From Candidatus Doudnabacteria bacterium (GTDB lineage Bacteria; Patescibacteriota; Doudnabacteria; UBA920), in assembly GCA_031291995.1 (NCBI GenBank), contig JARLHZ010000016.1, positions 1 through 54,148 on the forward strand: 54,148 bases of DNA. Direction: 5' to 3'. Both the position numbers and the translations under genes were made by a program. The notes below the pieces were generated by a model that saw nothing but the letters and a program-made list of their open reading frames with translations, was not told the origin of the DNA and did not search any database. This document shows, piece after piece, positions 5,801 through 20,677 of the stretch (position 1 is the first letter of the stretch; every line of letters begins with the position of its first letter).

Positions 5801-6790
5801 CTAATAATTCAAAAACTTTCCATGCGCTTCCTTGGCCTTGGTTTTATCTAGACCCAAGTAATAACGGCAGGTGGTCTCGAGCCGGTCATGGCCGAGGATT
5901 TCTTTTACGTGAGAAATTGGGCAGCCGTTAAATAAAAGGTTGGTGGCCATGGTATGCCGCAGAATGTGCGGCGTTATTTTTTTAGTAATGCCAGCTTTCC
6001 TGGCCTGCCAGCTGAAGGCCTTACTAATGTCGGACTTGGTTAAGCGCGTGCGGTTTTGGGTTATAAACAGCGCCGGGTTATTGTCCTTGCGATGCTCAAG
6101 ATAATGCTTAATCCAGTCCAAGGATCTCTGGTTAAAAAATACCGTGCGCTCCTTGCTGCCCTTGCCGATAATTTTGGCCTCGGCCTTTTCAAAGTCTATG
6201 CTGTCGCGGTTTAAAGACAGGGCTTCGGAAATTCTCATACCGGAGCCGAGCAGAACCTCGACCAGCGTCCGGAACCTTAAGCCGTTCATCCTGACTCCGG
6301 GCTTACGCAAATGGCCGGTGTGCTTTTTTTCTATGCTGATGCTGTTTACGAACTGCTCAATCTCCTCGTTGGTTAAAAACAGCACGTCGCGGCGCCTCCG
6401 CTTGGGCGACTTTATTCTTTTGCTATCAAGCACCGGCAGATCTAAAAAGTCCTTGCAGTATTTTAAAAAACTTTTAGTGGCAAACACAATGGAATAAATC
6501 CTGGCCTCGCTGGCCCCTCTGGCCAGGACTTTTTGTTTGACCTCGGTTATGTGGATGAGGTTTAGTTGGTTTATGGGCAAATCGCCGATATACCGGATGA
6601 CCCAATGCAGGCAGTCCCCGTATTTATCCACTGTGCCGGGAGAGAACGACAGCTCAAACTGGCCGTATTTTAAAAACCCCGGAATCAGCTCGCTGAATTT
6701 CGGGCAGGTTGGCGCCTGTGGGCTGGCCAAAATTGGCACGGCCAAAGTTCCTACATTTGTATTTGATTCTAAGGCAATCCCCGGATACAT
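5801..6790 (-). CDS. Tyrosine recombinase (XerC/D-like), integrase B of element 2
   Basis: GMRISE, GKGSKER, HILRH, LGH, TTCRYY catalytic set; start ATG 6790 by analogy with 40416. Confidence 0.95.
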   Translation of the reverse strand: MYPGIALESNTNVGTLAVPILASPQAPTCPKFSELIPGFLKYGQFELSFSPGTVDKYGDCLHWVIRYIGDLPINQLNLIHITEVKQKVLARGASEARIYSIVFATKSFLKYCKDFLDLPVLDSKRIKSPKRRRRDVLFLTNEEIEQFVNSISIEKKHTGHLRKPGVRMNGLRFRTLVEVLLGSGMRISEALSLNRDSIDFEKAEAKIIGKGSKERTVFFNQRSLDWIKHYLEHRKDNNPALFITQNRTRLTKSDISKAFSWQARKAGITKKITPHILRHTMATNLLFNGCPISHVKEILGHDRLETTCRYYLGLDKTKAKEAHGKFLNY

Positions 6791-6830
6791 AAAAAGCCTC
6801 GCGTCAATTGATGACACAAGGCTCTTTAAT
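6789..6830 (-). terminator. Terminator-like hairpin abutting integrase B start codon
   Basis: Minus strand AAAGAGCCUUGUGUCA-UCAAU-UGACGCGAGGCUUUUU-AUG; fully paired only with G-U pairs on the minus strand. Confidence 0.75.
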
Positions 6831-7052
6831 TGCAATTTCGTTAAGTTCCCTTAACGGCTAAATAGTGACCCCGAGCATTAAAGGCGCTCAGGCTCCGCAT
6901 AATCTTGCGATTATATGGAGAAGAATTACCGTACAAAACCGTTTACGTTAACGTCGTTTCTTAGAGTCAGGATTGCGTTAAAAATCGAAATAATTAACGA
7001 CGACCAACAGAATGCCGCAAATAGTAAGATCGAAATCCATACTTTTGCGGAA
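6791..7052 (-). ncRNA. Orphan 16S pre-rRNA 3' trailer copy B (structured)
   Basis: Homologous to 40417-40669; segments 6849-6868, 6931-6940 and 6941-6951 are complementary to the 16S leader; UUCG and GCAA hairpins. Confidence 0.75.
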
Positions 7053-7072
7053 TGTTCCTTAGAAAGGAGGTG
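7053..7072. repeat. att-like direct repeat (copy of 16S rRNA 3' end)
   Basis: TGTTCCTTAGAAAGGAGGTG identical to 40670-40689. Confidence 0.9.
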
Positions 7073-7221
7073 TTTATCCCGACCACTACCTGAAATAAAA
7101 AATATGACCAAAAACTGTATTAATTTTTTAACTTTCTGTAGGAAGAATAACTCTAAACTTGTAAAGTTGCAAATCGTAAATTGTGGAAATCTAAAACTAT
7201 ATTACCTGCCGCGTTTGTCAT

Positions 7222-7237
7222 CGGGACAGCGGTACAA
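7222..7237 (+). repeat. 16-bp sequence with inverted copy at 16295-16310
   Basis: CGGGACAGCGGTACAA; reverse complement TTGTACCGCTGTCCCG at 16295-16310. Confidence 0.6.
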
Positions 7238-7277
7238 AAATTTAAATTTTTCTTTTGGCATATTGGTTTACTGCATC

Positions 7278-7306
7278 AAAAAACCGCCCTGGTTTTAGGT
7301 GGCTTT
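7278..7306 (-). terminator. Intrinsic terminator after zeta-toxin pair
   Basis: Minus strand AAAGCCACCU-AAAACC-AGGGCGGUUUUUU. Confidence 0.55.
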
Positions 7307-7477
7307 ATGATTAGCTCTTTGGTACTGCTCCACCAGCTCTCGCTGATCCTGGTTGGCTTTGCGGATAACATCTTCCATCAGCGTGCGCTTTTCTTCCGGT
7401 GAGGCATGATTAAAAAAAGAGGAAAAATTTTTCTTCTCCGATTTGGGAGTAAATAATTGCTTAAGTTTCTTGATCAT
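7295..7477 (-). CDS. Small helical protein coupled to zeta toxin (putative partner)
   Basis: 4-nt overlap with the zeta gene; FSSFFNHASPEEKR-type motif. Confidence 0.6.
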   Translation of the reverse strand: MIKKLKQLFTPKSEKKNFSSFFNHASPEEKRTLMEDVIRKANQDQRELVEQYQRANHKAT

Positions 7478-8172
7478 AATAGCTTCTCCAACGCTTCTTT
7501 AGTATACACTTTTGGCAAATACACATCAAGGCTTTCGACATTATCATAAAGTTTTTCAAAACTTTTGCTAAAATCCTTGATAACTAAGTTAAGTTCAATT
7601 TTGGAGCCAAAATGGGCTTTAGCCTGGCTGACGTTCTCCCGGGCGCGAACGAAGGAATGTATAAAGACTTCCTTGGAAACATGGCGACCCTCCTTTTCTT
7701 CGCGAATCTTGGTAAACGTCCAGGCCACGACCGGGTCCTGAAACAAGTAATAAATCACCACGCGCCGGTTGTGCTTAAGCGAACGCTCTATATTCTCCAT
7801 CGCCCGCTCATAGGCAAAAGTGCCGTCTAAAATAGCGTTGATATTATTGTGCAGGACGTAATCAAATAACACGTTAACACCCAGGGTGCAGGCACGCTGA
7901 AAAATATGGGAATTGTTGCCGTTATAGTCTGGAAAAATCGCTCTTATATCGTCGGCGTCAATTCTCACCGGCTGACTGCCGTCAAAGACCTCAATTAACC
8001 GTTTTGATACTTCGGTTTTGCCAGCTCCGGGAGAGCCAGCCATAAACAAAGAAACCGGCTGCGCTTCCGGCTTATAAATTTTAGGGTTGGCGAAACGTTC
8101 AACCAACTCAAACTTATGTTCTTTGATGTATTGGTAAGCCGAGTCACTAAGTTGTTGATCATCTTCTAGCAT
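7474..8172 (-). CDS. Zeta toxin family P-loop kinase
   Basis: FMAGSPGAGKT, RIDADDIR, ILDGTF, EGRHV; start ATG 8172. Confidence 0.85.
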   Translation of the reverse strand: MLEDDQQLSDSAYQYIKEHKFELVERFANPKIYKPEAQPVSLFMAGSPGAGKTEVSKRLIEVFDGSQPVRIDADDIRAIFPDYNGNNSHIFQRACTLGVNVLFDYVLHNNINAILDGTFAYERAMENIERSLKHNRRVVIYYLFQDPVVAWTFTKIREEKEGRHVSKEVFIHSFVRARENVSQAKAHFGSKIELNLVIKDFSKSFEKLYDNVESLDVYLPKVYTKEALEKLL

Positions 8173-8179
8173 AGTTGTA

Positions 8180-8695
8180 TTACCTTTCTCCCTGCAACAT
8201 TCTCTCAAAAGCCTCCACATTACCCATGGAGTCATGCACCGGATTATGGTCATGTAGGGTAACGCGCAACTTTTTCCAAGATTGAGTATTAGTAAAGTCG
8301 CCAACAAGACCGGCATAAAAGTCACTAAGCCTTCTTGCGGAATGCCCAAAAGGAATTCTGCCAAGCGTTCTCCAAAAGCTGTCGTTAATCCATTGCCAAT
8401 CAAAAGCCGGGTTGTCGCTGACAAAAATTGGACGTTCGTGCTTCGTCAGATTTAAAATCCACTTTTCAAACTTCTCAAAGATTTCCCGCTCATCATAAAT
8501 TTTTCCGGTAGGGGCAGGGATCATAGGATTCCCCTCAGATGGCTTGGTTTCAGCCAGGACTCCGTGAAAAGTCGCTTTGGAAGGATATGCGACCGCGCCA
8601 AACTCGGTAAGTTTCCCTAACGCTGGACACTTGCCATACGCTTCACAATCCACGAAAATTAAATTGGTTAAGTTTCCACTCTTCATATATTTCAA
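8180..8695 (-). CDS. DEDDh 3'-5' exo(ribo)nuclease (Rv2179c/DUF5051-like)
   Basis: FVDCE, SDNPAFDW, HNPVHD motifs. Confidence 0.75.
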   Translation of the reverse strand: MKYMKSGNLTNLIFVDCEAYGKCPALGKLTEFGAVAYPSKATFHGVLAETKPSEGNPMIPAPTGKIYDEREIFEKFEKWILNLTKHERPIFVSDNPAFDWQWINDSFWRTLGRIPFGHSARRLSDFYAGLVGDFTNTQSWKKLRVTLHDHNPVHDSMGNVEAFERMLQGER

Positions 8696-8755
8696 TAATG
8701 TTACTTATACCAGAATATATCCCTTTTCCTATAATCGTGCAAGGCTTTACGCTAA

Positions 8756-9319
8756 TTAGTGCGTGAGCTTATAAACCTCAACCCATTGGTTGCTAATAAG
8801 TTCCTGGGCTTCCGGCAGGCTGATTTGGCCGGAACAAAGCTTGTCATGAAGAAAATTTTCTACTTCGTCTTTTTCATGAAACCCTGGCTTTGGTTCAGCC
8901 GCTTCCGGCCACAAGTTGGCAATATCATTGGAGCCGCCAAGCTCCAGGCTGATATAATGGTCAACTTCATACTGTCCGGCGGCATGGGCTGTAATGCCAT
9001 ATTCAGCATAAACTTGATTTTTAGTAGATTCTGAAACGTCCCTGGTTGATTTGCTGTAGCCCGAACTACAGATTTGGTCCTTGGTAGCAGTGGCAATAAT
9101 GGCTCCTGGGGTACAGGATGAATCGGGCAACGCACCGCTGATTACGCAATTATTAGTCTTAGTCCTTGGCGCTAAATGAAATTGCTGGGTTACTAATTGG
9201 TGAAGTTTTTTCAACTGTTCCGCCGACTTATACTGGTTCACGCCGTAGCTTACCCCTAAAACAGCGGCAATAACAGCCACGCTTAATACTATTTTATGTT
9301 TGGTTTTGATTTTCATCAT
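8756..9319 (-). CDS. Membrane-anchored/secreted HNH nuclease-like protein
   Basis: N-terminal TM; YEVDHYISLELGGSNDIANLWPE. Confidence 0.75.
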   Translation of the reverse strand: MMKIKTKHKIVLSVAVIAAVLGVSYGVNQYKSAEQLKKLHQLVTQQFHLAPRTKTNNCVISGALPDSSCTPGAIIATATKDQICSSGYSKSTRDVSESTKNQVYAEYGITAHAAGQYEVDHYISLELGGSNDIANLWPEAAEPKPGFHEKDEVENFLHDKLCSGQISLPEAQELISNQWVEVYKLTH

Positions 9320-9351
9320 TAGGTTTATTATAGCCTAATTTTAAAATTTTA

Positions 9352-10317
9352 TTAATCGTATTTTAAATATTTTTCGTGCGCTTCTTTTAGTTTCTTTTTG
9401 TCGGTGCCAAGATAATATTTCGCCGTTGTGGAGATCGTGGAATGTCCGAGGATATCTTTGATAAACATAATGTCGGCGCCTTGGTGGAGCATTAGAGTGG
9501 CCATGCTGTGGCGCAAAATATGGGGCGTAACTTTTTTCTTGATACCGGCTTTTGCAGCGTAACGCCTGAATTCTTTGCCCAAATCGTGCCGTGTGAGCCG
9601 ATTGGAAGTACCAAAGGCTACAAACAATGCAGGCTCGGAATCGGTACGCTGTTTGAGATATTTATTAATCCATTCAATGGTACGCGGTTTTAGATATACC
9701 GTCCGCTCCTTATTGCCCTTACCAATAATATTTACTTCCAAATTCTTTAAATCCAAATCTTGGCGGTTCAAAGAAAGAGCTTCACCGATACGCATACCGG
9801 TGGCCAAAAGCAATTCCATAAGAGCCCGCATCCGCAAACCGTAAATGCTGTCCACATTAATGCTGTTGAGCAGTTGCTGGATTTCTTCCTTGTCTAAAAA
9901 TGTAACCTGACGTTTTGGTAACTTCATAGGCTTAATGTCCTCAATATTAATAATTGTAGCAATTTTTTGAATTTCCTGGCAGTAAGCCAAAAATTTTCTT
10001 AAGGCGAAAAGAATACTATTCGTCCTTGACTCCCCGGCTCCGCGTTCCTGAATCCGCTGCTTTAGCAGGGTTATATCTTCCAGACATAGGATAGACGGAC
10101 TCAACACTTTCGGTAAATGCTTCATTACCCACTTTAGAGACTCTCCATATTTTTGCACCGTCTGCGGTGACAATTTAAGATCGTAAGCTGCATAGCCTAT
10201 AAACTTCGGGGTCAACTCTAAAAAAGTCTTGTCTGGCGACTTACGCGGGGCTGTGAGTTCAGTAGCGCCAAAAGGCCTGTTCAAAAGCACAGAGCTGTCT
10301 AAGATGGCTGTATCCAT
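9352..10317 (-). CDS. Tyrosine recombinase (XerC/D-like) C
   Basis: GMRIGE, GKGNKER, HILRH, LGH, TTAKYY. Confidence 0.95.
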   Translation of the reverse strand: MDTAILDSSVLLNRPFGATELTAPRKSPDKTFLELTPKFIGYAAYDLKLSPQTVQKYGESLKWVMKHLPKVLSPSILCLEDITLLKQRIQERGAGESRTNSILFALRKFLAYCQEIQKIATIINIEDIKPMKLPKRQVTFLDKEEIQQLLNSINVDSIYGLRMRALMELLLATGMRIGEALSLNRQDLDLKNLEVNIIGKGNKERTVYLKPRTIEWINKYLKQRTDSEPALFVAFGTSNRLTRHDLGKEFRRYAAKAGIKKKVTPHILRHSMATLMLHQGADIMFIKDILGHSTISTTAKYYLGTDKKKLKEAHEKYLKYD

Positions 10318-10347
10318 AATCGTATAGTTATGACACGGCGGCGCAAA

Positions 10348-13176
10348 CTAAAAGCCGAGTTCCTTTTCCAATTCCGCTGATTTTCCATCATCGGCAGCAA
10401 TACCCAGGGTATCCTGAACCTGCTTTAATTGTTCTTCGGTAATGGTAACTTCCACGGCTGGCTCTTTTACCAACGGCAGTAACTCCCCGGTAACTGGATT
10501 ATAAGGTTTGGATTGGTCCGCACCGCCATACTTCGCCCACAGGGCGGCTACTTCGGGGAGAATAACAGAATCGGCCGCGCCTTCTTTGCCGGTTAGCGCG
10601 TACTCTCCTGATCTGCGGCCGGCCCCGGCTAGTTCAAGGCTAATGTAGCCCTTGTCTGTCAGAGGATCCATCCATTTCAGCACAGTATCATAATTCAGCT
10701 TAGTGCGACTAACTATTTCTGTAATGGTAAAAGTCAACTTTTTTGGCTCGGTGGACTTCTGGTTTTCCGCCACAATCGTTTTGGCAATCTGAAAAATCTC
10801 CTTGCACCTCGGCGGCAAGTCAAAGATAGTTTCCCGCAAAATTTTGTCCGCGATTATTTTAGCGATTACATAATCCGTTATTTCGGCGACCAGGTATGGT
10901 TGCCCTTTAATCTCGGTTATTTTCCTTTGATACTGATGGAAAAAAGCCGAAGCTTCAACCAAGGCCAAAAAACGCTTGTAGTCGCGACGCACGCGTACCG
11001 GCTCCGTGGGAAAAACCCGCCGGATTTCCTCTACAAAGGGAATTTGCACCCGCTCATAAATCTTTAAAATTTCAGGATGTTGGACCAATCGCCAGCCATT
11101 TAGTTCGTCTTCCCCCATTTCGCTGATACCGCGATATTTGGAATCTGTCATTTCAAACGTCCGCACGGTTTGGTCTTCGGACTCATCCACATACAGCGAA
11201 AAATTACGCGTTTCATTTTCGGCATGAATACTGGCGCTGGTCGTGGTGGTAATAAATCCGGTAGGGCCTTCAACTTCCTTAATCTCGACGTGAAAATTCC
11301 CGGTTTCCGGGTCCTTAACCGTCAGCTGTAACTTTAGCTTACCTTCGGACTGCAGGGATCTAATGGAGTAGTCCGTCTGTTCGGCTCCGTGCTTTTCAAA
11401 CAGAATAATCATTTTATGTTTATAGGCATCGGACTCTACGTGGTAAAAACTCCTGGCCGTCGCGTCAGTAATATCCACATACTCGCCGGGCGGAAACAAT
11501 TTTAAACACTGGCCGACGCCATATGATTTTCCCCCGCTGCTAGCTCCTTTGGCAATTACTGAGATAGGGCTACTTAATAGACGTGAAGTCAAGGCCAAGT
11601 ATGTAAGTAGCCAATTTTCGGACTCTCCCGCAACCAGCAATTTCGGACGCAAATTGCAAACGTCAGCCAATAGAGTCGGAGACTGCAGTATTTTTTCCGC
11701 ATCCTGCCGTTGCTCGTCTGTAAACGCAGGCTCTGTTGGCGCGATTTTTAATTCTGATAATCGTTTGAATTTTAACGCATCACGGAATTCAATAATCCGC
11801 CTGATGTCTAACAAAATAGCGGCAAAATCAGAAACTTCAACGCCACAGCCACGGGCAAACCGATTCCGACTAATGGAGGAATCAAAAGTAAGGTTATCGC
11901 AATACAAGAGTTTTTCTTGCCTGGAATATTCAATCGCCGCCTGCAAACCCTTATCGTCAGTATCCATAATCCTTTTAACAAAAAGGGAGTGACTATCAAG
12001 TGTTATGGTTAAACCGCCGCCGAAGTCTTCGATAATCCGATAACGTTGCAGGTCATCGGGCAACTGGTATTCCAGAGTAGTTTTAGAATCTCTAAGTAGC
12101 TGCTGGAAATCTTCTTTAGAATGGCCGGCCACGGTAAATTCGTTAATGTCCTTGCCGGCGTGGCCTTCCTTAGTCGTAAAAGCCGGCAAGGTAATAATTT
12201 TTGCCTTACTGCCGATTCTTTCAGCAAGTTTTAGTGGATCACTCTGTCCGTCCGTATCAAGACAAATGCCAATAGTATCGCAATGGGAAAATTTTTCAGC
12301 CAGACCATCTTTTAGCTGGTTGCCGAGCAAAGCAACGGCCGGCAGCTGCCATTGCAACAGGCTAAGGCAATCCGGAATTCCTTCGCACAAAATTACTTCT
12401 TTATTATCCCGTAGCGCGTCTTCGTTATAGAAGTAATCGTTGCGGATAAATTCATTCACCGGCAAATGGCGATTCTTGGCCTCCTCCCATTTATGCGTAA
12501 GCGTGTGGTCAGTTTTGCGGCCAGTCATATAGACCACTCGGCCATTCTTAATAAGCGGAAAAGTTATGCGAAATTGGAAAAAATCATGTTTTCCCGTTTT
12601 AGTATCTACTATCAAGCCTGTCTTAATAACTTCTTCTACCGTAAAGCCTAACTTTTCCAACGCGGGCATGAGTGACTCGTCCGGGCCGGCAAAGCCAATT
12701 AAATTTTCAATCAATAACTCCTCAGACCAGGCGCGTTGCTTCAATTTCTCAAGCACGTCTTTGGCCATAAAGTCATCACCCATAAGCCTTTGATGATATA
12801 AGTTCGCGGCCGCAGTGAGCACTTCCTGGCAACGCCGGCTTTGGGAAATCTTTTGTTCGGCTTCCGGGGTTAACGGTTTTAGTTCAATATGATATTCCGC
12901 AGCCAGCCATTTAATTGCTTCGGTTGTCGAACATTGTTTTATTAGCTCCACAAGATCAATGACATCGCCGCCGCTTCGACCTTTCGGTGTTTTGTCACCT
13001 GCAAAGTGAAACCATGATTCGGTCCTGGTATATATTCTCAAAGCTGGGGTTACCTCGCCGCGTGCGGTGGTAACATAATCAGCTCCCGACTTCTTCAAAG
13101 TCAATCCCAGCTTTTCCGCGACTTCCACGATAGATGCGCGTTGCTTGATTTGCTCAATGATGGAATGTGTTATCAT
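10348..13176 (-). CDS. DnaG-type primase (TOPRIM) fused to P-loop helicase-like domain
   Basis: FRITFPL...GR, LCEGIPD, LDTD TOPRIM motifs; GASSGGKS Walker A; C-terminal wHTH-like region. Confidence 0.85.
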   Translation of the reverse strand: MITHSIIEQIKQRASIVEVAEKLGLTLKKSGADYVTTARGEVTPALRIYTRTESWFHFAGDKTPKGRSGGDVIDLVELIKQCSTTEAIKWLAAEYHIELKPLTPEAEQKISQSRRCQEVLTAAANLYHQRLMGDDFMAKDVLEKLKQRAWSEELLIENLIGFAGPDESLMPALEKLGFTVEEVIKTGLIVDTKTGKHDFFQFRITFPLIKNGRVVYMTGRKTDHTLTHKWEEAKNRHLPVNEFIRNDYFYNEDALRDNKEVILCEGIPDCLSLLQWQLPAVALLGNQLKDGLAEKFSHCDTIGICLDTDGQSDPLKLAERIGSKAKIITLPAFTTKEGHAGKDINEFTVAGHSKEDFQQLLRDSKTTLEYQLPDDLQRYRIIEDFGGGLTITLDSHSLFVKRIMDTDDKGLQAAIEYSRQEKLLYCDNLTFDSSISRNRFARGCGVEVSDFAAILLDIRRIIEFRDALKFKRLSELKIAPTEPAFTDEQRQDAEKILQSPTLLADVCNLRPKLLVAGESENWLLTYLALTSRLLSSPISVIAKGASSGGKSYGVGQCLKLFPPGEYVDITDATARSFYHVESDAYKHKMIILFEKHGAEQTDYSIRSLQSEGKLKLQLTVKDPETGNFHVEIKEVEGPTGFITTTTSASIHAENETRNFSLYVDESEDQTVRTFEMTDSKYRGISEMGEDELNGWRLVQHPEILKIYERVQIPFVEEIRRVFPTEPVRVRRDYKRFLALVEASAFFHQYQRKITEIKGQPYLVAEITDYVIAKIIADKILRETIFDLPPRCKEIFQIAKTIVAENQKSTEPKKLTFTITEIVSRTKLNYDTVLKWMDPLTDKGYISLELAGAGRRSGEYALTGKEGAADSVILPEVAALWAKYGGADQSKPYNPVTGELLPLVKEPAVEVTITEEQLKQVQDTLGIAADDGKSAELEKELGF

Positions 13177-13178
13177 AA

Positions 13179-13811
13179 TTATTTAAGACTACTGTTAGCT
13201 TTTTCTGAATTATGGTCGGTTGTGGACTTTGCAGATTCGGTTGGCGGAGTTGGTTCTAAAAGCCCTGATAGTTTTCCCATGAGGGATTTAAGGACTTTGT
13301 CAGCCTCCAAATAAAAAAGGTGAAAATCTTTAACTTGATACTTATCTGGCACTAAGGCCTCACCCTCAACATGGGAGCTGCAGCGCCAGAGCATCTCGAT
13401 GGAGGCGGTGCGGTAAACCCTCAGCCAATCGATGATTTCGTAAATTTTCATTATCATCTTATCCTTGTCTTCGGGCTCTTCCACAAATTCCAGGGTATTT
13501 ACAGCTGTGTCAATAAACATACTTGCGTTATGCATATTTTTCACTGACTCCGATACAATAAAGGGATTTGCCACAACATCAAAGGTTGAGGCGAATTTAG
13601 ATTTACTGGTCGGCACATAATCAGGTAAATAAAGCTTCCCTTCTTCCTGAAACGCCGCGCTCGGATCAAATGTTTTTACTATAACCACGGAGACCCCCGG
13701 GCGGGCTTGGCCTGATTTAATAGAGACCGAAAGTTGATCCGGCGTGGTCGTTGCCTTGTGATCTTTATCTCGATTAGATTTATTGGCTACTGGCTTTAGA
13801 ATTTTGTCCAT
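13179..13811 (-). CDS. Hypothetical protein
   Basis: Abuts primase gene; ATG 13811 preceded by AAAGAAAGGT. Confidence 0.65.
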   Translation of the reverse strand: MDKILKPVANKSNRDKDHKATTTPDQLSVSIKSGQARPGVSVVIVKTFDPSAAFQEEGKLYLPDYVPTSKSKFASTFDVVANPFIVSESVKNMHNASMFIDTAVNTLEFVEEPEDKDKMIMKIYEIIDWLRVYRTASIEMLWRCSSHVEGEALVPDKYQVKDFHLFYLEADKVLKSLMGKLSGLLEPTPPTESAKSTTDHNSEKANSSLK

Positions 13812-13892
13812 ATATATTACCTTTCTTTGTTCGGGGAAGGCACGCACATCGCTGGACGTACCTGTCCTCCCCGAACCTTACCTAAACCTAAT

Positions 13893-15074
13893 TTAATGAT
13901 TATTGTTTAACCTAGCCTTGGCAATATCCACATATCCTTGGAATTTTTCTATCCCGATAAATGGATGACCTAAAGTTTTGGCGGCTACCAAGGTTGAGCC
14001 AGAGCCTGCAAAACAATCCAGCACAATGCCATTGGGCGGCGTGATAAGCTTTATAAGATACTGCATCAGGGCTTGGGCTTTGACGGTGGGGTGGTTATTT
14101 TTCGTTGGTTTGGTTCTGGCCGCTTCGTTCTCTCTTGGAGCATTAGTCCGTATGCCCGCTTTGGCTTCCATGTTTTCTAGCCCCAAATCACGTTCGGCTT
14201 TGCTGGCCTTGGCGCAATAAAAGAATCTGGCTTTAGGTAACTCCGCCAGCACTATCGGCGAGCCATCGTGAATCAAATTAGCAGGGAAGCGTCCTTTAGT
14301 GTTCCATAGACCCTGCTTTTCAATTTTCTTTTTTTTAAGATTCCAGCTATACCTGCCCGTGCCGCTTCGTTGACCATATTCAGCCGAGATAACTTCATCA
14401 GTTTCCACCCGGCAAGCGTCAATATTTAAGCCGCCAACATCCCACTTTAAAACATTCTCCGCTATTGTCTTTTCGCTTAACGGCTTTCGCGCCAACAGCC
14501 AATGCTCTACGGCGGGCTTTAAGGCTGTACCCCAACCCTGCCACTGTTTAGCTGATTCGCTAATGGGCGTGTTCTTTGGGTGCTTAACCTCTTGTTTTCT
14601 GTCAATCGCTTTGGAGATATTAAGGCTCTTGGGAAATCCGGTGCCAAATAAATGGTGCTGAATATCTCTAATTTCAAACCCAGCATTCTCTAAAGCAAAT
14701 GCCGTCCAATGAGAAGTTCTTGGCAAAGCCCATACCAAAGCGTGCCCGCCAGGTTTTAAAACCCTATTACATTCACACAGAATCCTTGCCAGCCATTCAA
14801 TCCATTTATCACGACCTCCTTTGTCGCTGTCCCATTCTTTATTCATAAAGCCAATTCCAGCCGGGGGATCAGTCACCACGCTGTCTATGGAGTTATCGGG
14901 AATAAGCTTTAATACTTCCAAGCAATCTCCGATGGTAACATTATTTATAAATTTTTTACCATGTAAAACACGGCCAGCCAACTCAACAAGCTTAGCTCGC
15001 GCTAGTAGTTGACCGGGACGACATTCCCGCCAAACGGCTTTGAATTCTTTTAAATCCTTGTCTGTTGGTTGCAT
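13893..15074 (-). CDS. N4/N6 DNA methyltransferase (beta class, orphan)
   Basis: VVTDPPA (motif IV variant), HPTVK, VLDCFAGSGST. Confidence 0.9.
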   Translation of the reverse strand: MQPTDKDLKEFKAVWRECRPGQLLARAKLVELAGRVLHGKKFINNVTIGDCLEVLKLIPDNSIDSVVTDPPAGIGFMNKEWDSDKGGRDKWIEWLARILCECNRVLKPGGHALVWALPRTSHWTAFALENAGFEIRDIQHHLFGTGFPKSLNISKAIDRKQEVKHPKNTPISESAKQWQGWGTALKPAVEHWLLARKPLSEKTIAENVLKWDVGGLNIDACRVETDEVISAEYGQRSGTGRYSWNLKKKKIEKQGLWNTKGRFPANLIHDGSPIVLAELPKARFFYCAKASKAERDLGLENMEAKAGIRTNAPRENEAARTKPTKNNHPTVKAQALMQYLIKLITPPNGIVLDCFAGSGSTLVAAKTLGHPFIGIEKFQGYVDIAKARLNNNH

Positions 15075-15077
15075 GTA

Positions 15078-15281
15078 TTAAAAATCTTTTAGGGATTTAG
15101 TATTAATCATCATCTGGCACAAGTACCTGTTATTATCTTTGCCTAACTTTTTGCTACAAATGGAGAGGAACGCCAGGGGAATCTCGGGAAAAAAGTCAGA
15201 ATCTTTCAACTTTTTAGCCCTCATTCCATCTTTTATCATTCTGTTCGTCCTATCCCACTCTTTTTTGGACACGTAGCACAT
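15078..15281 (-). CDS. Small basic hypothetical protein
   Basis: First ORF of the MTase-primase-recombinase run, 3 nt from the MTase start. Confidence 0.45.
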   Translation of the reverse strand: MCYVSKKEWDRTNRMIKDGMRAKKLKDSDFFPEIPLAFLSICSKKLGKDNNRYLCQMMINTKSLKDF

Positions 15282-15343
15282 AAATGACAGATTAATTTTT
15301 TAATTATCTGCCGTGAGTGTATAATTTGGCCCTGTGACCAAAG

Positions 15344-15365
15344 TTGCTAACGGTTTGCTAACGGT
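15344..15365. repeat. Tandem 11-bp repeat (possible operator)
   Basis: TTGCTAACGGT x2 upstream of the primase operon. Confidence 0.55.
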
Positions 15366-15375
15366 TTGGGTAAAC

Positions 15376-15404
15376 AAAAAAGCAGCCCGTTTTAGGCTGC
15401 TTTT
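15376..15404 (-). terminator. Intrinsic terminator
   Basis: AAAAAAGCAGCC-cgtttta-GGCTGCTTTT. Confidence 0.75.
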
Positions 15405-15420
15405 GACAGTAGTTAACTGC

Positions 15421-16230
15421 TTACGAAGGGGGTAATTTTACCCTTAATTGATGTTGATTTCCCCGTGTTTCGAAAACCTCAAATCCAAGGTTCTCCGTTT
15501 TTTTTGCCCTATCATTTAAATTAAATACTGTTGACCTTATTGCGCCATACTGATCTCCGGTTTCTTCAAGGGTTCTTGCCTGATCAGTACTACCTCTGAT
15601 AAATACCATTTCGTTAATCTTTTTATAGGTGACCCAATCACCAATCTTATAATCTGCCAGCCACTCATCGTCAGCTATACTCACGTGTGCTCCGTGTTCG
15701 TCCTCGTCATGGATAGGATGATTAAACAGGAAAAGACATAAATTAAGCGCATGGGCTCCGAACTGCCCGCCCCCCGGCCTTACCGACATACGTTTGTCTT
15801 TAAATCTAAATTCGTAGTCCCGAGGGTTAAAAACTAGCAGATGATAATCAGGGCCTGCCAGCATTTCCCGCAATCCGCTGTCCAGACGACCCAAATACCA
15901 ACCAAAGTCTTCTTTGTCATAAAGTAAATTTATCGTTCCACCGTTGCGATAGTGATTTTCCAAATCATCTAAAATTTCAGGTCCCCGAATCTCAAGCAAG
16001 GGCTGCCGTTGGCTATTTTGACCGTCGGCAAGACGGAGCAATATTTTATGTAATTCTCTTAAGTCGGATGTATTTAAACCTTGCCTTTCAGACTTACCAA
16101 AAGCTTCCCTAAAATCCCTTAGAGGAATCGTTATAGGCTCAAGGACACCTGGCTCATAAAGACGTTTTTGGTATAAAAAATTGCAAACCGCAATAAGCAA
16201 TCTTTTGTCTGGTATGTTAGGCATACCCAT
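15421..16230 (-). CDS. Hypothetical protein, possible C-terminal winged-helix regulator
   Basis: 269 aa; C-terminal helix plus beta-hairpin pattern (AIRSTVFNLNDR...FETRGNQHQLRV). Confidence 0.55.
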   Translation of the reverse strand: MGMPNIPDKRLLIAVCNFLYQKRLYEPGVLEPITIPLRDFREAFGKSERQGLNTSDLRELHKILLRLADGQNSQRQPLLEIRGPEILDDLENHYRNGGTINLLYDKEDFGWYLGRLDSGLREMLAGPDYHLLVFNPRDYEFRFKDKRMSVRPGGGQFGAHALNLCLFLFNHPIHDEDEHGAHVSIADDEWLADYKIGDWVTYKKINEMVFIRGSTDQARTLEETGDQYGAIRSTVFNLNDRAKKTENLGFEVFETRGNQHQLRVKLPPS

Positions 16231-16468
16231 ATTTTACCCCAAAATCGCCCATAAAGCCAAAGGTAGAAAAAATAAGCTTCGACCCATACAGAACTTGTAC
16301 CGCTGTCCCGCCTAAGGTTGCCAAAACAATATTAAACTTTACTTGTCTTCTGTTCATGTAATCTTACTTTTAAAGTAGGAAGAAATTCATTTTATAAAAC
16401 TGTAGTAATACTTAGGCGCAAGTCCCTTCAAGCCCCCACACCACGAAAACCTGCGGACTTACAAGAGT

Positions 16469-17140
16469 CTACCCCAGCTGTTTATAGACTTGGGCCACCA
16501 AATCAGGGCTTCTGTGCCATTTGTTGGCTAAATGCATAAACGCCCCCGCCCGCCTGGTATAGCGCTCTAGGCCGACGGTTTTGTCCATATAGAAAGGACG
16601 GCGGATTAAGCTTTGCATCAAATGCAGTTTGTCGCTGCGGTTTTGATAGTAAAGAAAAGCGTTAAGCTTCCAGCGCTTATCTACTTCCTTAATGCCGTAC
16701 CTAATCGGCTGACAGCAGTCAAAACACATAAAGTAAATGCAATCGGGGCGAAGGTACAACTTACCCGCGTGGCCGCAATCACACACCAGCCGTGGCTTAT
16801 TGCCCAGCGTGGTCGGGATGGTATCCAGGCGGATGGTCTGTTCTCTAAAATTTGTATTATCGACGCTATAGCGAATAAGGATATTAGGATTAACGCGGCC
16901 GAGTTGTACCTGAAAACTTATTAGCATATTCGCCGCCAGGCTTGGCTTTATAACTGCCGTAATGCCAACTTTACCGCCACCGCCCGCCCTTGGGTGTAGC
17001 AGGTTGCGGGTAAAGGTTCCGGCGGTAATGGCAAAACAATCCTCCACGTTAACTTTTGGCAATGACTTAACCGCCTTGTCCGGAACATATTCGCCATCTT
17101 CGTCATTTTCTATTATGTTGTCCCATAAATATTCTTCCAT
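16469..17140 (-). CDS. Hypothetical protein with zinc-binding motif
   Basis: CDCG...KLYL...FMCFDCC; SD AAGGAG upstream. Confidence 0.7.
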   Translation of the reverse strand: MEEYLWDNIIENDEDGEYVPDKAVKSLPKVNVEDCFAITAGTFTRNLLHPRAGGGGKVGITAVIKPSLAANMLISFQVQLGRVNPNILIRYSVDNTNFREQTIRLDTIPTTLGNKPRLVCDCGHAGKLYLRPDCIYFMCFDCCQPIRYGIKEVDKRWKLNAFLYYQNRSDKLHLMQSLIRRPFYMDKTVGLERYTRRAGAFMHLANKWHRSPDLVAQVYKQLG

Positions 17141-17451
17141 GGTTATAACTCCTTTATTTATATTTTAGAACTAGTCATTGGCTTGGGCAATTTTGAAAAA
17201 ATTTGGGTTCCATTTTTTTTGATTCCTAAATTTTTTATTCCATTTATTTTAAAAACAAAATACCTCTTTTTTATAAAAGTCTTATGGGCCTGGGCGGTGG
17301 GGCCAACTAACTTCAAATCCAACAACCGTATGGAACTGCCCACAAACCGCTCCCCATCCGGTTTCCCGCGCGACTTACGCGTGCCAGATTACCAATTCCT
17401 TTTGCTTGAATTATTAATGCGTAATTTCTTACGCAAAGGAATTGATAATAT

Positions 17452-17574
17452 ATGCAGCACAACATCAACTTCTTCGGCACAGCCCAGCAACTTAAGGACT
17501 ACACATCCGCCCTCGCTTGGCTCGAGGCCGAGGCCTGGGAGCCAGTTGACGGATGGCCGGACGAACATCATTAG
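17452..17574 (+). CDS. 40-aa microprotein (not in ORF track)
   Basis: MQHNINFFGTAQQLKDYTSALAWLEAEAWEPVDGWPDEHH*, upstream AAAGGA, downstream terminator. Confidence 0.5.
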   Translation: MQHNINFFGTAQQLKDYTSALAWLEAEAWEPVDGWPDEHH

Positions 17575-17613
17575 TCCCCATATTTACCAGCCGCTTTAAG
17601 CGACTCAACGGCT

Positions 17614-17650
17614 AAAGCCCGATGCCGTTTCCAAGTCCGGGCTTTTTATT
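17614..17650 (+). terminator. Intrinsic terminator
   Basis: AAAGCCCG...CGGGCTTTTTATT. Confidence 0.6.
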
Positions 17651-17663
17651 ATTAACCTAACTA

Positions 17664-17781
17664 ATGTATGTAAGAGAAAAATCGCTGTTCCCAATGTAAT
17701 TGGCCGCTCGACTACGAAGACCAGGAGAACATGAACTGTCCCGATTGCGGTTATTCGTGGGCTGAGAATGTAGAAAAATAA
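17664..17781 (+). pseudogene. Zinc-ribbon microprotein with one-base frameshift
   Basis: Removing one A from the run at 17677-17681 gives MYVRENRCSQCNWPLDYEDQENMNCPDCGYSWAENVEK*. Confidence 0.45.
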
Positions 17782-17849
17782 AAAAACAAAAATACCTTTG
17801 TAATGACTTGCAAGTCAAAAACAAAAACTTAATAATTAACGACAACTTT

Positions 17850-18065
17850 ATGAATAGAACTGTCACGGTGGCAATCCCTGACCATAACTGTCCTGGCTTT
17901 AATGGCTGCCCGGTATGCCGGGACTTTTTGTTTGCCCGCTCGCGTCAAAAATGGAACGCCTTGCAGGAAAAATGGTCCTTAGTCCGGCAACGCATGAACC
18001 GGCCATACCAGCCGGACGCGATGGTGATCGCAGCCATAATGAGTCCGGAAAAGGAGGAAAAATAA
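17850..18065 (+). CDS. Small Cys-rich hypothetical protein
   Basis: HNCPGFNGCPVC; its 3' end provides AGGAGG for the next gene. Confidence 0.6.
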   Translation: MNRTVTVAIPDHNCPGFNGCPVCRDFLFARSRQKWNALQEKWSLVRQRMNRPYQPDAMVIAAIMSPEKEEK

Positions 18066-18067
18066 AA

Positions 18068-18367
18068 ATGCAAAGCGTAGCACAAGTTCTAAGTTCGTGG
18101 CGTGGTAGTCCACTCACGGAAAGCAAAACTCGCGAGATCATTTTGCAGAGATTCGGACCCAAGGCCGCGGAAATCTATAATCCACGAACCAACGCAATGA
18201 CCTACAAAAATTGGCTTCGTTGCGGCCGGCGGGTTATAAAGGGGCAAAAGTCCATCCCCTCGGTCACAATCGTGGAGAAACGAAACTCCAAGGGAGAGGT
18301 AGAAAAGAAGTACGCTAAAGTCGCGCATCTTTTCTTTATCGCCCAGACAGAGCCAATCAGCCAATAG
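18068..18367 (+). CDS. ArdC-like N-terminal ssDNA-binding domain protein
   Basis: TYKNW...GRRVIKGQKSI...LFFIAQT; AGGAGG SD before ATG 18068. Confidence 0.75.
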   Translation: MQSVAQVLSSWRGSPLTESKTREIILQRFGPKAAEIYNPRTNAMTYKNWLRCGRRVIKGQKSIPSVTIVEKRNSKGEVEKKYAKVAHLFFIAQTEPISQ

Positions 18368-18445
18368 AATCAAATCGTCAGCTTGCCTGACTTAAGCGTT
18401 GCCGGATCGTAAACAACCGGCTCCAAAAAATAATATCCAAAATCT

Positions 18446-18916
18446 ATGCAATATTTAGTAAACCTAAATTGCAAAATTAACGCCGATACCGAAGAACAAG
18501 CCAAGGCTCAGGCCTTGATGAATATCCAAATCCGGGAAGCCACATATGCAATCACTACACCCCTAAGCGTCTATGAACGACTTAAAACCATTAGAGGCAG
18601 GGCCAAAGAACACCTCATTGTTTTCCTGTTAAATGTTCATCACAAAATAATTAAACAGGAAGTCGTCTCCGTGGGGACGCTCGATTCGTCTTTGTTGCAC
18701 CCGAGGGAAATTTATCGCTCCGCAATTAAGGCGGGTTGTTCCCACATAATTTTGGCCCATTCACATCCAAGCGGGAGTCTTGAACCAAGCGAGGCTGACT
18801 TGACGGCTACCCGACGTATCGCGGACTCCGGCCGGCTTCTTGGAATCGAACTTCTCGATCACGTGATTGTGACTAAGCATGGCTACTACAGCCTAAAAGA
18901 ACACAATAATTTATAA
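18446..18916 (+). CDS. radC: RadC-like JAB-domain protein
   Basis: GTLDSSLLHPRE, HSHPSG...PSEAD, LLDHVIV. Confidence 0.9.
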   Translation: MQYLVNLNCKINADTEEQAKAQALMNIQIREATYAITTPLSVYERLKTIRGRAKEHLIVFLLNVHHKIIKQEVVSVGTLDSSLLHPREIYRSAIKAGCSHIILAHSHPSGSLEPSEADLTATRRIADSGRLLGIELLDHVIVTKHGYYSLKEHNNL

Positions 18917-18959
18917 AGCCAACGCTGCTAAACCAGCGATTGGTAAGAAAGGTAACCCC

Positions 18960-19340: not shown

Positions 19341-19342
19341 AC

Positions 19343-20662: not shown

Positions 20663-20677
20663 AATTTTAACTATATG

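What the first reader, a model, noticed from the sequence alone, without database searches (positions are those of the whole stretch)
6791..7052. Each element carries its own replacement 16S pre-rRNA trailer that re-forms the processing stems
Seen: both post-att regions (6791-7052 and 40417-40669) keep three blocks complementary, in nested order, to the host 16S leader: leader 43392-43411 with 40476-40493 or 6849-6868; 43347-43356 with 40555-40564 or 6931-6940; 43297-43307 with 40565-40575 or 6941-6951. Differences are mostly G-U pairs or single mismatches. Between these blocks the sequences diverge but the hairpins covary: two UUCG-capped stems, a GCAA-capped stem (UUAUUC/GAAUAA vs AUAAUC/GAUUAU) and CCUGAGC/GCUCGGG. 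Established: leader-trailer helices flanking 16S are needed for pre-rRNA processing. Inference: the element supplies a functional trailer and terminator so that insertion does not disable what may be the only 16S gene, an rRNA-level analogue of tRNA 3'-end restoration.
Basis: partly seen in the sequence, partly recalled or inferred. Interest (0 to 1): 0.95.

Follow-up and report, generated by a model that had tools for sequence, protein, structure and literature searches.

The report
Mobile elements that replace the 16S trailer
Integrase-carrying mobile elements have inserted at the very 3' end of this small bacterium's only 16S rRNA gene, and each brings its own copy of the downstream RNA "trailer" that pairs with the gene's leader, so the ribosomal RNA can probably still be matured.

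Summary
The window is a whole contig of a 1.49-Mb CPR/Patescibacteria genome with one 16S gene. A 19-bp core (the anti-Shine-Dalgarno end of 16S) occurs exactly twice in the window. Each copy is followed by a 250-270-nt trailer and then a Xer-like tyrosine integrase whose ATG lies in the U-tract after the trailer's last hairpin. A third core with a native-type trailer lies on another contig.

All trailers pair with the 16S leader in nested helices, far beyond shuffled controls. In relatives this integrase clade nearly always sits behind a 16S-end core plus trailer. It is patchy: 15 of 146 genomes of the order. It forms tandem arrays, and the whole trailer travels with the integrase to its right. 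Element trailers match host-specific leader variants through compensatory changes, and their hairpins covary.

Contigs from three metatranscriptomes match the 16S end plus trailer A exactly. All stop 2-3 nt before the outer-helix strand, and the integrase has no RNA cover.

Not shown: a role in processing, termination at the last hairpin, and excision. Seven literature searches found no earlier report. I read it as a new variant of target-restoring integrative elements.

The parts
40678..43041 (-). Single 16S rRNA gene (bacterial, CPR type). The mature 3' end ...CACCUCCUUUCU lies at about 40678. It contains a ~900-nt insertion at 41136-42035.
   Evidence: Rfam match 40682-43041 covering the full model. 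RF00177 pieces occur only on this contig. An RNA contig joins 41135 to 42036.
43042..43420 (-). 16S leader with four trailer-pairing strands: 43412-43391 (outer), 43356-43347, 43307-43294 and 43055-43044 (innermost).
   Evidence: Cofolds. Outer helix found in 45 leader/trailer pairs and counted column by column in 38 of them.
40671..40689 (-). attL core: the last 12 nt of 16S (including the anti-SD CCUCC) plus 7 nt beyond. The final C marks the element-type variant; the native sequence in the genus ends in T.
   Evidence: the C variant occurs only in G000, G017 and G018-C1; homology between the occupied and empty alleles of G018 ends at the core.
40417..40670 (-). Trailer A, the element-borne trailer now attached to the 16S. 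It holds two UUCG hairpins, pairing blocks 3' and 2' (40578-40555), a GCAA hairpin, the CCUGAGC/GCUCGGG hairpin, the outer-helix strand 40494-40473, and a terminal hairpin plus U-tract that contains GAGG and runs into the integrase ATG.
   Evidence: Contigs in RNA libraries identical to 40496/7-40662..40697 in 3 runs.
39448..40416 (-). Integrase A, a Xer-like tyrosine recombinase of 322 aa.
   Evidence: PF00589 at 4.7e-40. Below the XerA/XerC/XerD cut-offs.
7073..40670 (-). Element A (33.6 kb), bounded by the two exact cores. From left to right on the minus strand: trailer A, integrase A, HKD+Snf2 helicase, type IIG restriction-modification enzyme, DUF2254, NERD, LOOT RNA, a 1474-aa Ig-domain protein, RadC, an ArdC-like protein, a DNA methylase, a DnaG-like primase, a second recombinase, and a zeta-toxin-domain kinase.
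   Evidence: No phage structural families were found in the 10 cargo proteins scanned.
7054..7072 (-). Second exact core: attR of element A and attL of element B. It is preceded by non-16S sequence (ggtcgggataaa).
6791..7053 (-). Trailer B, the trailer carried by element B (the stretch named in the finding).
5801..6790 (-). Integrase B (329 aa, ATG at 6790-6788), 62% identical to integrase A. Element B runs on to the contig end.
   Evidence: Window 1-141 is a multi-copy repeat found at contig ends.
9352..10317 (-). Second recombinase type ('int3') inside element A, next to the primase at 10348-13176. This type has no 16S-like core upstream.
   Evidence: 0 of 9 int3-type loci have a core.

Best explanation
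The window holds a tandem array of integrative elements at the 3' end of the single 16S rRNA gene of a CPR (Patescibacteria) bacterium.

A Xer-like tyrosine recombinase recombines an 18-19-bp core, CACCTCCTTTCTAAGGAA(C), which is the anti-Shine-Dalgarno end of 16S plus a few bases. In the element, the core is followed by a complete 16S trailer homologue of 250-270 nt and then directly by the integrase gene. Integration therefore disconnects the native trailer, which ends up behind the far core, and connects the element's trailer to the 16S.

That trailer keeps four nested helices with the host leader, the conserved internal hairpins and a terminal hairpin with a U-tract. The pre-16S RNA can thus still fold into the long leader-trailer stem that RNase III-type processing uses.

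Shown here: the anatomy, the distribution, the complementarity, the covariation, and that trailer A is present in RNA libraries joined to the 16S end.

Inferred: that the stem is needed for maturation in this organism, that the last hairpin terminates transcription, and that the elements still move.
For: Anatomy.
- Two exact cores, a third on contig C2 and four trailers.
- The integrase ATG sits in the motif GAGGCTTTT(T)ATG, or a close variant of it, in 15 of 15 aligned element-type trailers. One of them, G026, has no intact integrase behind it.

Association with the integrase.
- All 16 genome-collection loci whose integrase is 42-62% identical have a core-like site 190-330 nt upstream. Three of three more distant loci checked have none.
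- In the order-level search, all 12 int1-type loci have it and none of the 9 int3-type loci does.

Signs of mobility.
- The profile matches 15 of 146 genomes of the order, in 4 families.
- There are arrays of 2-3 cores in G017, G064, G052 and G054.
- G018 has an occupied and an empty copy that are 99.1% identical over 3009 bp and diverge exactly at the end of the core.
- The native core in the genus ends in T and the element-linked one in C.
- Whole trailers travel with the integrase on their right, whatever the array position.

RNA-level constraint.
- Cofold gains of -24 to -39 kcal/mol against about -8 +/- 3 for shuffles.
- An outer helix of 20-34 bp in 44 of 45 leader/trailer pairs.
- Columns -13 to +8 of that helix are almost always paired, apart from a conserved A-C at column -6, in 26 native and 12 element pairs. 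Element pairs show changes on both sides at columns -5, -1, 4, 6, 7 and 8.
- The element trailers of G147, G143, G065 and G057 fit their own leader better than nearly all foreign leaders.
- Internal hairpins: 79.3% of cells paired against 70.2 +/- 0.9 in shuffles (0 of 500 reached it) and 39-49% when slid; 31 of 57 pairs changed on both sides.

RNA.
- Three RNA runs from three coded studies each hold a contig with 0 differences over 40496/7 to 40662-40697.
- They have no depth on the integrase, on 40442-40495 or on the 16S insertion, while the DNA run covers all of these at about 21x.

Other. An RNase III gene is present. The integrases are simple Xer-like proteins.
Against: - No excision product or attP was seen. 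A search for the right end plus core found nothing in the metagenome collection, and the DNA run showed no loose end at the core.
- The far end of element B is not in the contig. Gene order downstream of the 16S is not conserved among relatives, so no clean empty site exists for this genome.
- The last unit of the G017 array has no closing core, and G064 ends in only a partial trailer.
- The two G018 copies could be paralogues or two strains.
- The terminal hairpin is not called a terminator by the scan, and no RNA cover reaches it.
- Contig ends are only a weak hint of RNA ends. The RNA runs could hold a relative that carries the same trailer.
- One integrase at 55% identity in a high-GC metagenome contig has no 16S-like core within 2.2 kb.
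- One native pair (G041) shows only a 12-bp outer helix.
- The structure tested was derived from one of the aligned sequences.
Confidence: 0.72

Rival explanations
1. The trailer-like DNA between core and integrase is kept as recombination-site DNA (attP arms, binding sites for the integrase or accessory proteins), not for any RNA role. Its likeness to host trailers is a relic of the capture that created the element.
For: Some strongly conserved motifs have no RNA partner that I could assign: CATTCYGnTGGTCGTC and GAAATTGCAA. The 3' half of the trailer is 98% identical between G000 and G018a, while the adjoining integrase DNA is only 82-85% identical. That would also fit a protein-binding site.
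Against: Hairpin stems change on both sides while staying paired. The outer-helix strand follows host-lineage-specific leader variants in four families, which a DNA-binding role does not predict. The integrases are short and Xer-like; such enzymes generally use a simple core site without arm sites (recalled, not tested). Trailer A is present in RNA libraries while the integrase gene is not.
Confidence: 0.12
2. The crossover lies inside or after the trailer. On this view the 5' part of each 16S-adjacent trailer is native and only the 3' part plus integrase belongs to the element. The 16S-end core would be just the left edge of a longer duplicated target.
For: Trailer A and the G018a trailer are 97% identical in the 3' part but only 71% in the 5' part. 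The 5' part of trailer A resembles native trailers of the genus. Trailers A and B share several other identical blocks of 11-24 bp. The two trailers of G052, and those of G054, are mosaics of identical and divergent segments.
Against: Two pairs of related modules are alike along the whole trailer although they sit at different array positions in different genomes (95/92% and 84/95%). The occupied and empty G018 copies diverge from the first base after the core. The base at the end of the core (C or T) goes with the trailer to its right. The mosaics are as well explained by homologous exchange between resident and incoming trailers.
Confidence: 0.1
3. The units are old, immobile remnants: a domesticated recombinase next to a duplicated trailer. 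They persist by descent, and the arrays come from ancient duplication and rearrangement in a genome rich in insertion sequences.
For: No attP or empty-site read was found. The last units of arrays lack a closing core. Partial trailers without a core exist (trailer D; G064 C28:~92705). The G018a integrase is split into three frames and the G054 integrase is a fragment. The genome is fragmented at multi-copy repeats.
Against: The distribution is patchy across four families. Integrases A and B are intact with catalytic-domain matches. The cores are exact at 19 bp. Cargo differs behind a conserved trailer-integrase module. The same module types occur in a different order in G017 and G064.
Confidence: 0.06

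Closest known systems
Genomic islands and prophages that integrate into the 3' part of tRNA or tmRNA genes and regenerate the gene (the class catalogued by Islander; PMC4383910, start of abstract seen in a search listing)
   Same: A tyrosine integrase lies next to attL. The crossover is inside the 3' end of a structural RNA gene. The element carries the sequence that restores the gene, and the displaced native fragment marks the far end. Tandem arrays form at one target.
   Different: The target is the 16S rRNA 3' end (the anti-SD), not a tRNA or tmRNA. Only 12 nt of mature RNA are restored. The bulk of what is replaced is about 250 nt of non-mature precursor sequence, which has to pair with a leader about 2.7 kb upstream that the element does not carry. 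The recombinase is Xer-like.
Leader-spacer processing stem of bacterial pre-16S rRNA, cut by RNase III (E. coli model; recalled, no paper read here)
   Same: Long-range pairing between the 5' leader and the sequence 3' of 16S encloses the whole gene. An RNase III gene is present in this genome.
   Different: 16S is unlinked from 23S here. The 3' strand therefore lies in a free-standing trailer with several nested helices and hairpins, and in this genome it is supplied by a mobile element. Cleavage sites are not mapped; there is only a hint from contig ends.
Islands that integrate into an end of a protein gene and restore it: dusA 5' end (PMC4482086) and trmE 3' end for SGI1 (PMC8409611); starts of abstracts seen in the listing
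   Same: Site-specific insertion into a conserved housekeeping gene, with the element replacing the displaced end.
   Different: Those restore coding sequence. Here the restored part is a structured, non-coding precursor segment constrained by pairing with host RNA.
rDNA-specific elements of eukaryotes such as R1/R2 (review PMC10946416, listing only) and introns or insertions inside CPR rRNA genes (recalled)
   Same: They use the most conserved genes of the cell as a safe target.
   Different: Those insert inside the mature rRNA region, and either inactivate the copy or are removed from the RNA. This element inserts at the boundary of the mature RNA and swaps the flanking precursor sequence. 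It is a DNA element moved by a tyrosine recombinase.

Membership tests
Target-regenerating integrative elements (tRNA/tmRNA-island type) | Tyrosine integrase gene adjacent to the regenerated target end | tested here: met
   PF00589 at 4.7e-40 (A) and 9.2e-38 (B). The ATG lies 255-265 nt after the core.
Target-regenerating integrative elements (tRNA/tmRNA-island type) | Direct repeat: the 3' fragment of the target gene repeated at the far end, preceded by non-target sequence | tested here: met
   An exact 19-bp core at 40671-40689 and 7054-7072, against 0.02 expected. The second copy is preceded by ggtcgggataaa instead of the 16S sequence.
Target-regenerating integrative elements (tRNA/tmRNA-island type) | Target gene left intact after insertion | tested here: met
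   Full-length Rfam SSU match, model positions 1-1478. The 3' end sequence is identical to that of island-free relatives up to the last base of the core.
Target-regenerating integrative elements (tRNA/tmRNA-island type) | Presence/absence polymorphism at the same site among relatives | tested here: met
   5 of 39 16S-adjacent trailers have an integrase. 15 of 146 genomes of the order match the profile. G018 has an occupied and an empty copy.
Target-regenerating integrative elements (tRNA/tmRNA-island type) | Target is a tRNA or tmRNA gene | tested here: not met
   The target is the 16S rRNA 3' end. There is no tRNA in the window. For this reason I file it as a variant, not a member.
Target-regenerating integrative elements (tRNA/tmRNA-island type) | Excision or circular form (attP) detectable | tested here: inconclusive
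   No exact match to the right end plus core in the metagenome collection. No loose end at the core in DNA run X1, which is held as contigs only.
XerC/XerD/XerA chromosome-dimer resolvases | Score above the curated equivalog cut-off | tested here: not met
   Integrase A: XerA 173.1 bits against a cut-off of 220, XerD 168.4 against 329.6, XerC 167.6 against 335.15. Integrase B: 196.8, 151.1 and 161.6.
Pre-16S leader-trailer processing stem (RNase III substrate) | Long-range complementarity of leader and trailer enclosing the 16S, beyond chance | tested here: met
   The outer helix is 20-34 bp in 44 of 45 pairs.
Pre-16S leader-trailer processing stem (RNase III substrate) | Pairing kept by compensatory changes across lineages | tested here: met
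   in native and element pairs. Lineage-specific variants appear.
Pre-16S leader-trailer processing stem (RNase III substrate) | Cleavage within the stem by RNase III | tested here: inconclusive
   An RNase III gene is present. RNA-library contigs of three runs stop at 40496/7, 2-3 nt before the outer-helix strand. Contig ends are only a weak hint.
Prophage | Virion structural and packaging genes | tested here: not met
   9 of 10 cargo proteins had no PHROG match; the tenth matched only through an Ig-like domain. No close integrase relative in IMG/VR: 3 distant hits at 24-37%. Not all cargo ORFs were scanned.

The most novel reading that the evidence does not exclude
The trailer is an exchangeable adapter that sets host range. 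After entering a new host, the element recombines its trailer with the displaced resident one; the mosaic 5' and 3' halves point to this. It thereby acquires the strands that fit that host's leader. This lets one recombinase clade use the invariant anti-SD end of 16S as an attachment site across CPR lineages.

The integrase's GAGG ribosome-binding motif and its AUG are also buried in the trailer's last hairpin and U-tract. Integrase synthesis would then be gated by how the pre-rRNA 3' end is transcribed, folded and processed, which would couple element mobility to ribosome synthesis.
Probability: 0.3. Interest if true: 0.9.

Novelty: new variant of a known kind. Interest (0 to 1): 0.82.

Why it matters
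Integrative elements are known to restore the tRNA, tmRNA or protein gene they cut. Here the same logic is applied to a ribosomal RNA gene, and what is restored is mostly precursor sequence whose only evident task is to pair with a distant leader.

- It gives a natural experiment on how much of a pre-rRNA flank is needed. Selection on a mobile element marks the leader-pairing strands and hairpins as the parts kept.
- It shows that the single rRNA gene of tiny CPR genomes is a hotspot for the arrival of defence systems and other cargo.
- It explains why contigs of such genomes often break right after 16S. Several integrase loci start 210-320 nt from a contig end.
- An integrase with a 19-bp site present in every member of the group could serve as a site-specific integration tool for bacteria that are hard to manipulate.

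Tried and rejected
Synteny as proof of an empty site. Genes upstream of the 16S are conserved in G012, G002, G017 and G013. Genes downstream are not. The genus-level downstream anchor, homologues of G000:C25:~56296, lies inside another contig of G000. G056 and G052 share nothing downstream. So contig C2's core plus trailer C cannot be placed relative to the window.

Contig joins. Window 1-141 is a repeat found at many contig ends, and the insertion sequence next to the C2 core is multi-copy. No join could be made.

Horizontal transfer judged from identity. Integrase DNA is 82-85% identical between G000 and G018a, which is lower than 16S at 92-94%. That gives no argument for recent transfer of the whole module. 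Only the 3' half of the trailer stands out, at 98%.

Non-CPR hosts. Four contigs binned as Deltaproteobacteria or Syntrophorhabdus carry a displaced core-like site, a trailer-like stretch and a 42-51% identical integrase. In G061 the only 16S found lies in an ordinary 16S-tRNA-tRNA-23S operon on another contig. The trailer-like stretch does not pair with that leader beyond shuffles (score 29; shuffled maximum 29). I left this unexplained.

Metagenome integrase loci. 46 of the 80 loci were examined and 8 have a core-like site upstream. Most of the rest are 31-49% identical and may be of the int3 type or unrelated. Of the 4 loci with at least 50% identity and usable upstream sequence, 3 have the site and L213 does not.

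RNAalifold on the 15 trailers found only two helices, because of gaps in the alignment. I therefore tested the structure taken from trailer A.

No protein-database, structure or complex jobs were run, because the question did not need them. Supplementary files of papers were not consulted. For all papers cited I saw only search listings. The exception is PMC12424338, where a term search found 0 occurrences of rRNA, ribosomal RNA, 16S or target gene.

The statement that the arrangement is not in print rests on searches of the held library only.
Full report
WHAT IS IN THE WINDOW

The window is the whole of contig C31 of a 1.49-Mb genome in 39 contigs, 94% complete. Close integrase-bearing relatives are labelled Candidatus Doudnabacteria, Saccharibacteria or Patescibacteria in public records.

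A 16S rRNA gene lies on the minus strand at 43041-40678. It is the only 16S found in the genome. The 23S gene is on another contig, so this 16S stands alone with its own leader and trailer.

The 16S carries an insertion of about 900 nt at 41136-42035. A contig of RNA run X20 skips it exactly.

CHECK OF THE OBSERVATION

- The 19-nt string CACCTCCTTTCTAAGGAAC occurs exactly at 40671-40689 and 7054-7072 on the minus strand, against 0.02 matches expected by chance. Its first 12 bases are the 3' end of 16S, including the anti-Shine-Dalgarno CCUCC.
- The first copy is preceded by 16S sequence and the second by unrelated sequence.
- After each copy comes a homologous stretch of 250-270 nt, and then an open reading frame with a tyrosine-recombinase catalytic domain.
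- Cofolding leader 43285-43420 with trailer A or B gains -36.0 or -24.0 kcal/mol. One hundred dinucleotide shuffles of each trailer gave about -8 +/- 3, with the most extreme at -21.4 and -16.5.

ADDITIONS TO THE OBSERVATION

- There is a fourth, innermost helix: leader 43055-43044 with trailer 40675-40664. It overlaps the last bases of the core.
- The genome has two more trailers on contig C2. Trailer C follows a third core that ends in T instead of C. Trailer D is a partial copy 1.3 kb further on, without a core.
- C and D pair with the leader as well as or better than A (-37.2 and -39.3). Their outer helix is longer, 27 bp, reaching into the leader's TTAGAAA.
- They look like native trailers of the genus.

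IS IT A MOBILE ELEMENT OR THE NATIVE ARRANGEMENT?

I searched 61 genomes, the window's own and 60 relatives, for the core.

- Most have one copy. In the genus the native copy ends ...GGAAT.
- The ...GGAAC form occurs only where an integrase follows: G000, G017 and G018 contig 1.
- Of 39 16S-adjacent trailers that I could read, 5 are followed by an integrase within 460 nt and 34 are not. For 5 of the 34, only 400 nt were read.
- In the whole order, 15 of 146 genomes match the integrase profile at E <= 1e-60, spread over four families.
- Several genomes have arrays. G017 has three cores within 30 kb on one 868-kb contig, each followed by trailer and integrase. G064 has two, and G052 and G054 have two each.
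- G018 has two copies of the region. They are 99.1% identical over 3009 bp and part company exactly at the last base of the core. One continues into an element-type trailer and integrase, the other into a native-type trailer. They may be two strains or two gene copies.

Copy B is not a plain duplication either. Integrases A and B are 62% identical and the gene content behind them differs.

THE LINK BETWEEN THIS INTEGRASE CLADE AND THE 16S END

- In the genome collection, all 16 loci whose integrase is 42-62% identical to A have a core-like site 190-330 nt upstream. Three more distant loci that I checked have none.
- In the order-level search, all 12 loci of this type have it 198-461 nt upstream of the matched part.
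- The 9 loci of a second recombinase type have none. That type occurs once inside most elements, next to a primase in element A.
- In metagenome contigs the picture is mixed. 8 of the 46 loci examined have the site. Of the 4 with at least 50% identity and enough upstream sequence, one (L213, a high-GC contig) lacks it.

WHOSE TRAILER IS IT?

A serious alternative was that the crossover lies further right, so that the 5' part of the 16S-adjacent trailer would be native.

- For the alternative: trailer A and the G018a trailer are 97% alike in the 3' part but only 71% in the 5' part.
- Against it: the G017 third-position trailer and the G064 first-position trailer are 95% and 92% alike in the 5' and 3' parts. 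The G017 first-position and G064 second-position trailers are 84% and 95% alike.
- The G018 copies diverge from the first base after the core.
- The C or T at the end of the core goes with the trailer on its right.

The whole trailer therefore belongs to the unit on its right, and the crossover is in the core. Mosaics such as A versus G018a, and the pairs in G052 and G054, then point to exchange between trailers.

IS THE TRAILER CONSTRAINED AS RNA?

The outer helix.
- It exists in 44 of 45 leader/trailer pairs from the order, at 20-34 bp. G041 has only 12 bp.
- Its sequence differs between lineages while both strands change together.

Integrase-linked trailers follow their host.
- G065 carries the GCGGTAAG/CTTACCGC variant of its genus.
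- G057 gives a 32-bp helix that no foreign leader equals.
- G147 (family f2) scores 56 against a shuffled maximum of 35 and a foreign maximum of 39.
- G143 has a C-G pair where others have A-U.
- Within 12 element pairs, columns -5, -1, 4, 6, 7 and 8 show changes on both sides.

Internal hairpins of 15 element-type trailers.
- 79.3% of cells are paired, against 70.2 +/- 0.9 in shuffles (0 of 500 reached the observed value) and 39-49% when partners are slid.
- 31 of 57 pairs changed on both sides, against 22.0 +/- 2.6.
- Caveats: the structure came from trailer A itself, and the sequences are related.

Displaced trailers pair with the leader as well as attached ones, as expected if they are still parts of elements.

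RNA EVIDENCE

- Four runs held as contigs were laid on 40100-43500.
- The DNA run, probably the source of the window, covers everything at about 21x. It has a contig bridging the core from 40100 to 40817.
- Three metatranscriptome runs from three coded studies each hold a contig with no difference from the window, over 40496-40662, 40497-40693 and 40497-40697. A fourth covers 40633-40699.
- These contigs reach only 4-10 nt past the core into the 16S, where 16S sequence is shared by many organisms.
- The RNA runs have no depth on the integrase, on 40442-40495 or on the 16S insertion, so DNA carry-over is unlikely.
- All stop at 40496/7. That lies at the base of the CCUGAGC/GCUCGGG hairpin, 2-3 nt before the outer-helix strand begins, and there is no loose end there.

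This fits a precursor cut in the outer helix and trimmed back to a stable hairpin. The tool itself rates coinciding contig ends as a weak hint only. The three studies may also be one campaign.

An RNase III gene is present in the genome.

THE JUNCTION WITH THE INTEGRASE

- In 15 of 15 aligned element-type trailers, the last hairpin ends in GAGGCTTTT(T)ATG or a close variant. Fourteen have an integrase behind them; G026 has only a broken frame.
- The ATG is the start of the integrase.
- The GAGG, six bases upstream, is both the 3' strand of the stem and a ribosome-binding-like motif.
- The stem covaries (helix 7).
- The simple scan does not call it a terminator, and finds no sigma-70-like promoter on this strand between the core and the ATG.

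Termination there, and control of the integrase by this hairpin, are therefore ideas and not results.

WHAT THE ELEMENTS CARRY

- Element A (7073-40670) has an HKD+Snf2 helicase, a type IIG restriction-modification enzyme, a NERD protein, RadC, an ArdC-like protein, a methylase, a DnaG-like primase, a second recombinase and a zeta-toxin-domain kinase.
- It also holds a match to the LOOT RNA family.
- Nine of ten further proteins have no PHROG match, and the tenth matches only by an Ig-like domain.
- No close integrase relative occurs in IMG/VR.
- Cargo differs between related modules: G018a and G000 share nothing beyond the integrase.

These are integrative, plasmid-like islands with defence cargo. 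They are not evident prophages.

COMPARISON WITH WHAT IS KNOWN

The logic is that of islands in tRNA and tmRNA genes, which restore the gene they split and leave the displaced fragment at the far end (PMC4383910, abstract start seen in a search listing).

It differs in three ways:
- the target is 16S rRNA;
- what is restored is mostly precursor flank, constrained by pairing with a host leader the element does not carry;
- the enzyme is Xer-like but below the XerA, XerC and XerD cut-offs.

Seven full-text searches and a term search in the TIGER/Islander announcement turned up no description of integrases that target the 16S 3' end. This holds for the held library only, and supplements were closed.

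VERDICT

- The anatomy, element-borne surrogate trailers at the 16S 3' end, I hold at about 0.9.
- The full statement, including function in maturation, I hold at about 0.7.
- It is a new variant of a known kind. It is of high interest for rRNA processing, for the biology of mobile elements in CPR bacteria, and as a possible genetic tool.

Noticed in passing
window 41136-42035 (-), inside the 16S gene: A ~900-nt insertion in the 16S with two small ORFs (41269-41556 and 41514-41945). It is absent from the 16S genes of G017, G018 and G064. An RNA-run contig joins 41135 directly to 42036, and RNA depth across it is zero. It therefore seems to be removed from the rRNA.
   Followed up: partly
window 26717-26845 (-): A match to the Rfam family LOOT RNA (62.1 bits, gathering score 46.4) inside element A, between a NERD-domain gene and small ORFs.
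   Followed up: no
window 9352-13176 (-); G017 C4:358853 and 370560; G127, G111, G145: Most elements contain a second Xer-like recombinase type, about 43-45% identical to the first. In element A it lies directly after a 942-aa DnaG-like primase. It has no 16S-like core upstream (0 of 9). It may be a replication or resolution module of an episomal form.
   Followed up: partly
window 40417-40450 (-) and 6788-6825 (-): GAGG lies six bases before the integrase ATG and is part of the 3' strand of the last trailer hairpin. It is conserved, or replaced by a close variant, in 15 of 15 element-type trailers. A TTGCAA/TTGAAA motif lies just upstream of the hairpin. Both could bear on integrase expression.
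   Followed up: no
outer helix, leader 43405 region with trailers (column -6): An A-C mismatch in the middle of the outer leader-trailer helix is the majority state (16 of 26 native pairs, 7 of 12 element pairs). Trailer A has A-U there instead.
   Followed up: no
G000 C2:134520-136040 (L003, L012): The third core and trailer C are followed by a gene for an HATPase_c plus STAS-like protein, and then by a partial trailer D without a core. A similar core-less partial trailer lies at G064 C28:~92705. The left flank of the C2 core (GGCTCGGTAA) is identical to that of a displaced core in G127.
   Followed up: partly
L049 (G054 C27:6545-10928) and L050 (G005 C77:2336-3565): A different unit behind a 16S-type core and trailer: three TGCGCGAT repeats followed by a Fic/DOC gene, with no integrase next to the trailer. 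In G054 it is flanked by two cores 4.4 kb apart, and an integrase fragment follows the second trailer.
   Followed up: partly
L073, L074, L075, L078 (contigs binned as Deltaproteobacteria or Syntrophorhabdus): A displaced core-like site (CACCTCCTTTCTAGGGAGAT), a ~320-nt stretch and a 42-51% identical integrase, not next to a 16S. In G061 the only 16S found is in a normal rrn operon on another contig, and the stretch does not pair with its leader beyond shuffles.
   Followed up: partly
L103 4740-4790 (G065 leader, just upstream of the 16S 5' end): The leader holds a hairpin whose 5' strand copies the 16S 3' end (CACCTCCTTTCTAC...GTAGAAAGAGAGG). It was first picked up as a false core.
   Followed up: no
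window 1-141; C2:136570-137781: Window 1-141 is a repeat present at the ends of at least seven other contigs. An IS3-like element about 500 bp from the C2 core also has copies at contig ends. The genome is rich in repeats that break the assembly.
   Followed up: no
window 43415-43451 and 47943-47992; 50696-50766: Short direct repeats (units around ACGCGGATCT) lie just upstream of the outer-helix strand of the leader and again 4.5 kb away. There is also a GAAGCAT-type tandem repeat near 50.7 kb.
   Followed up: no
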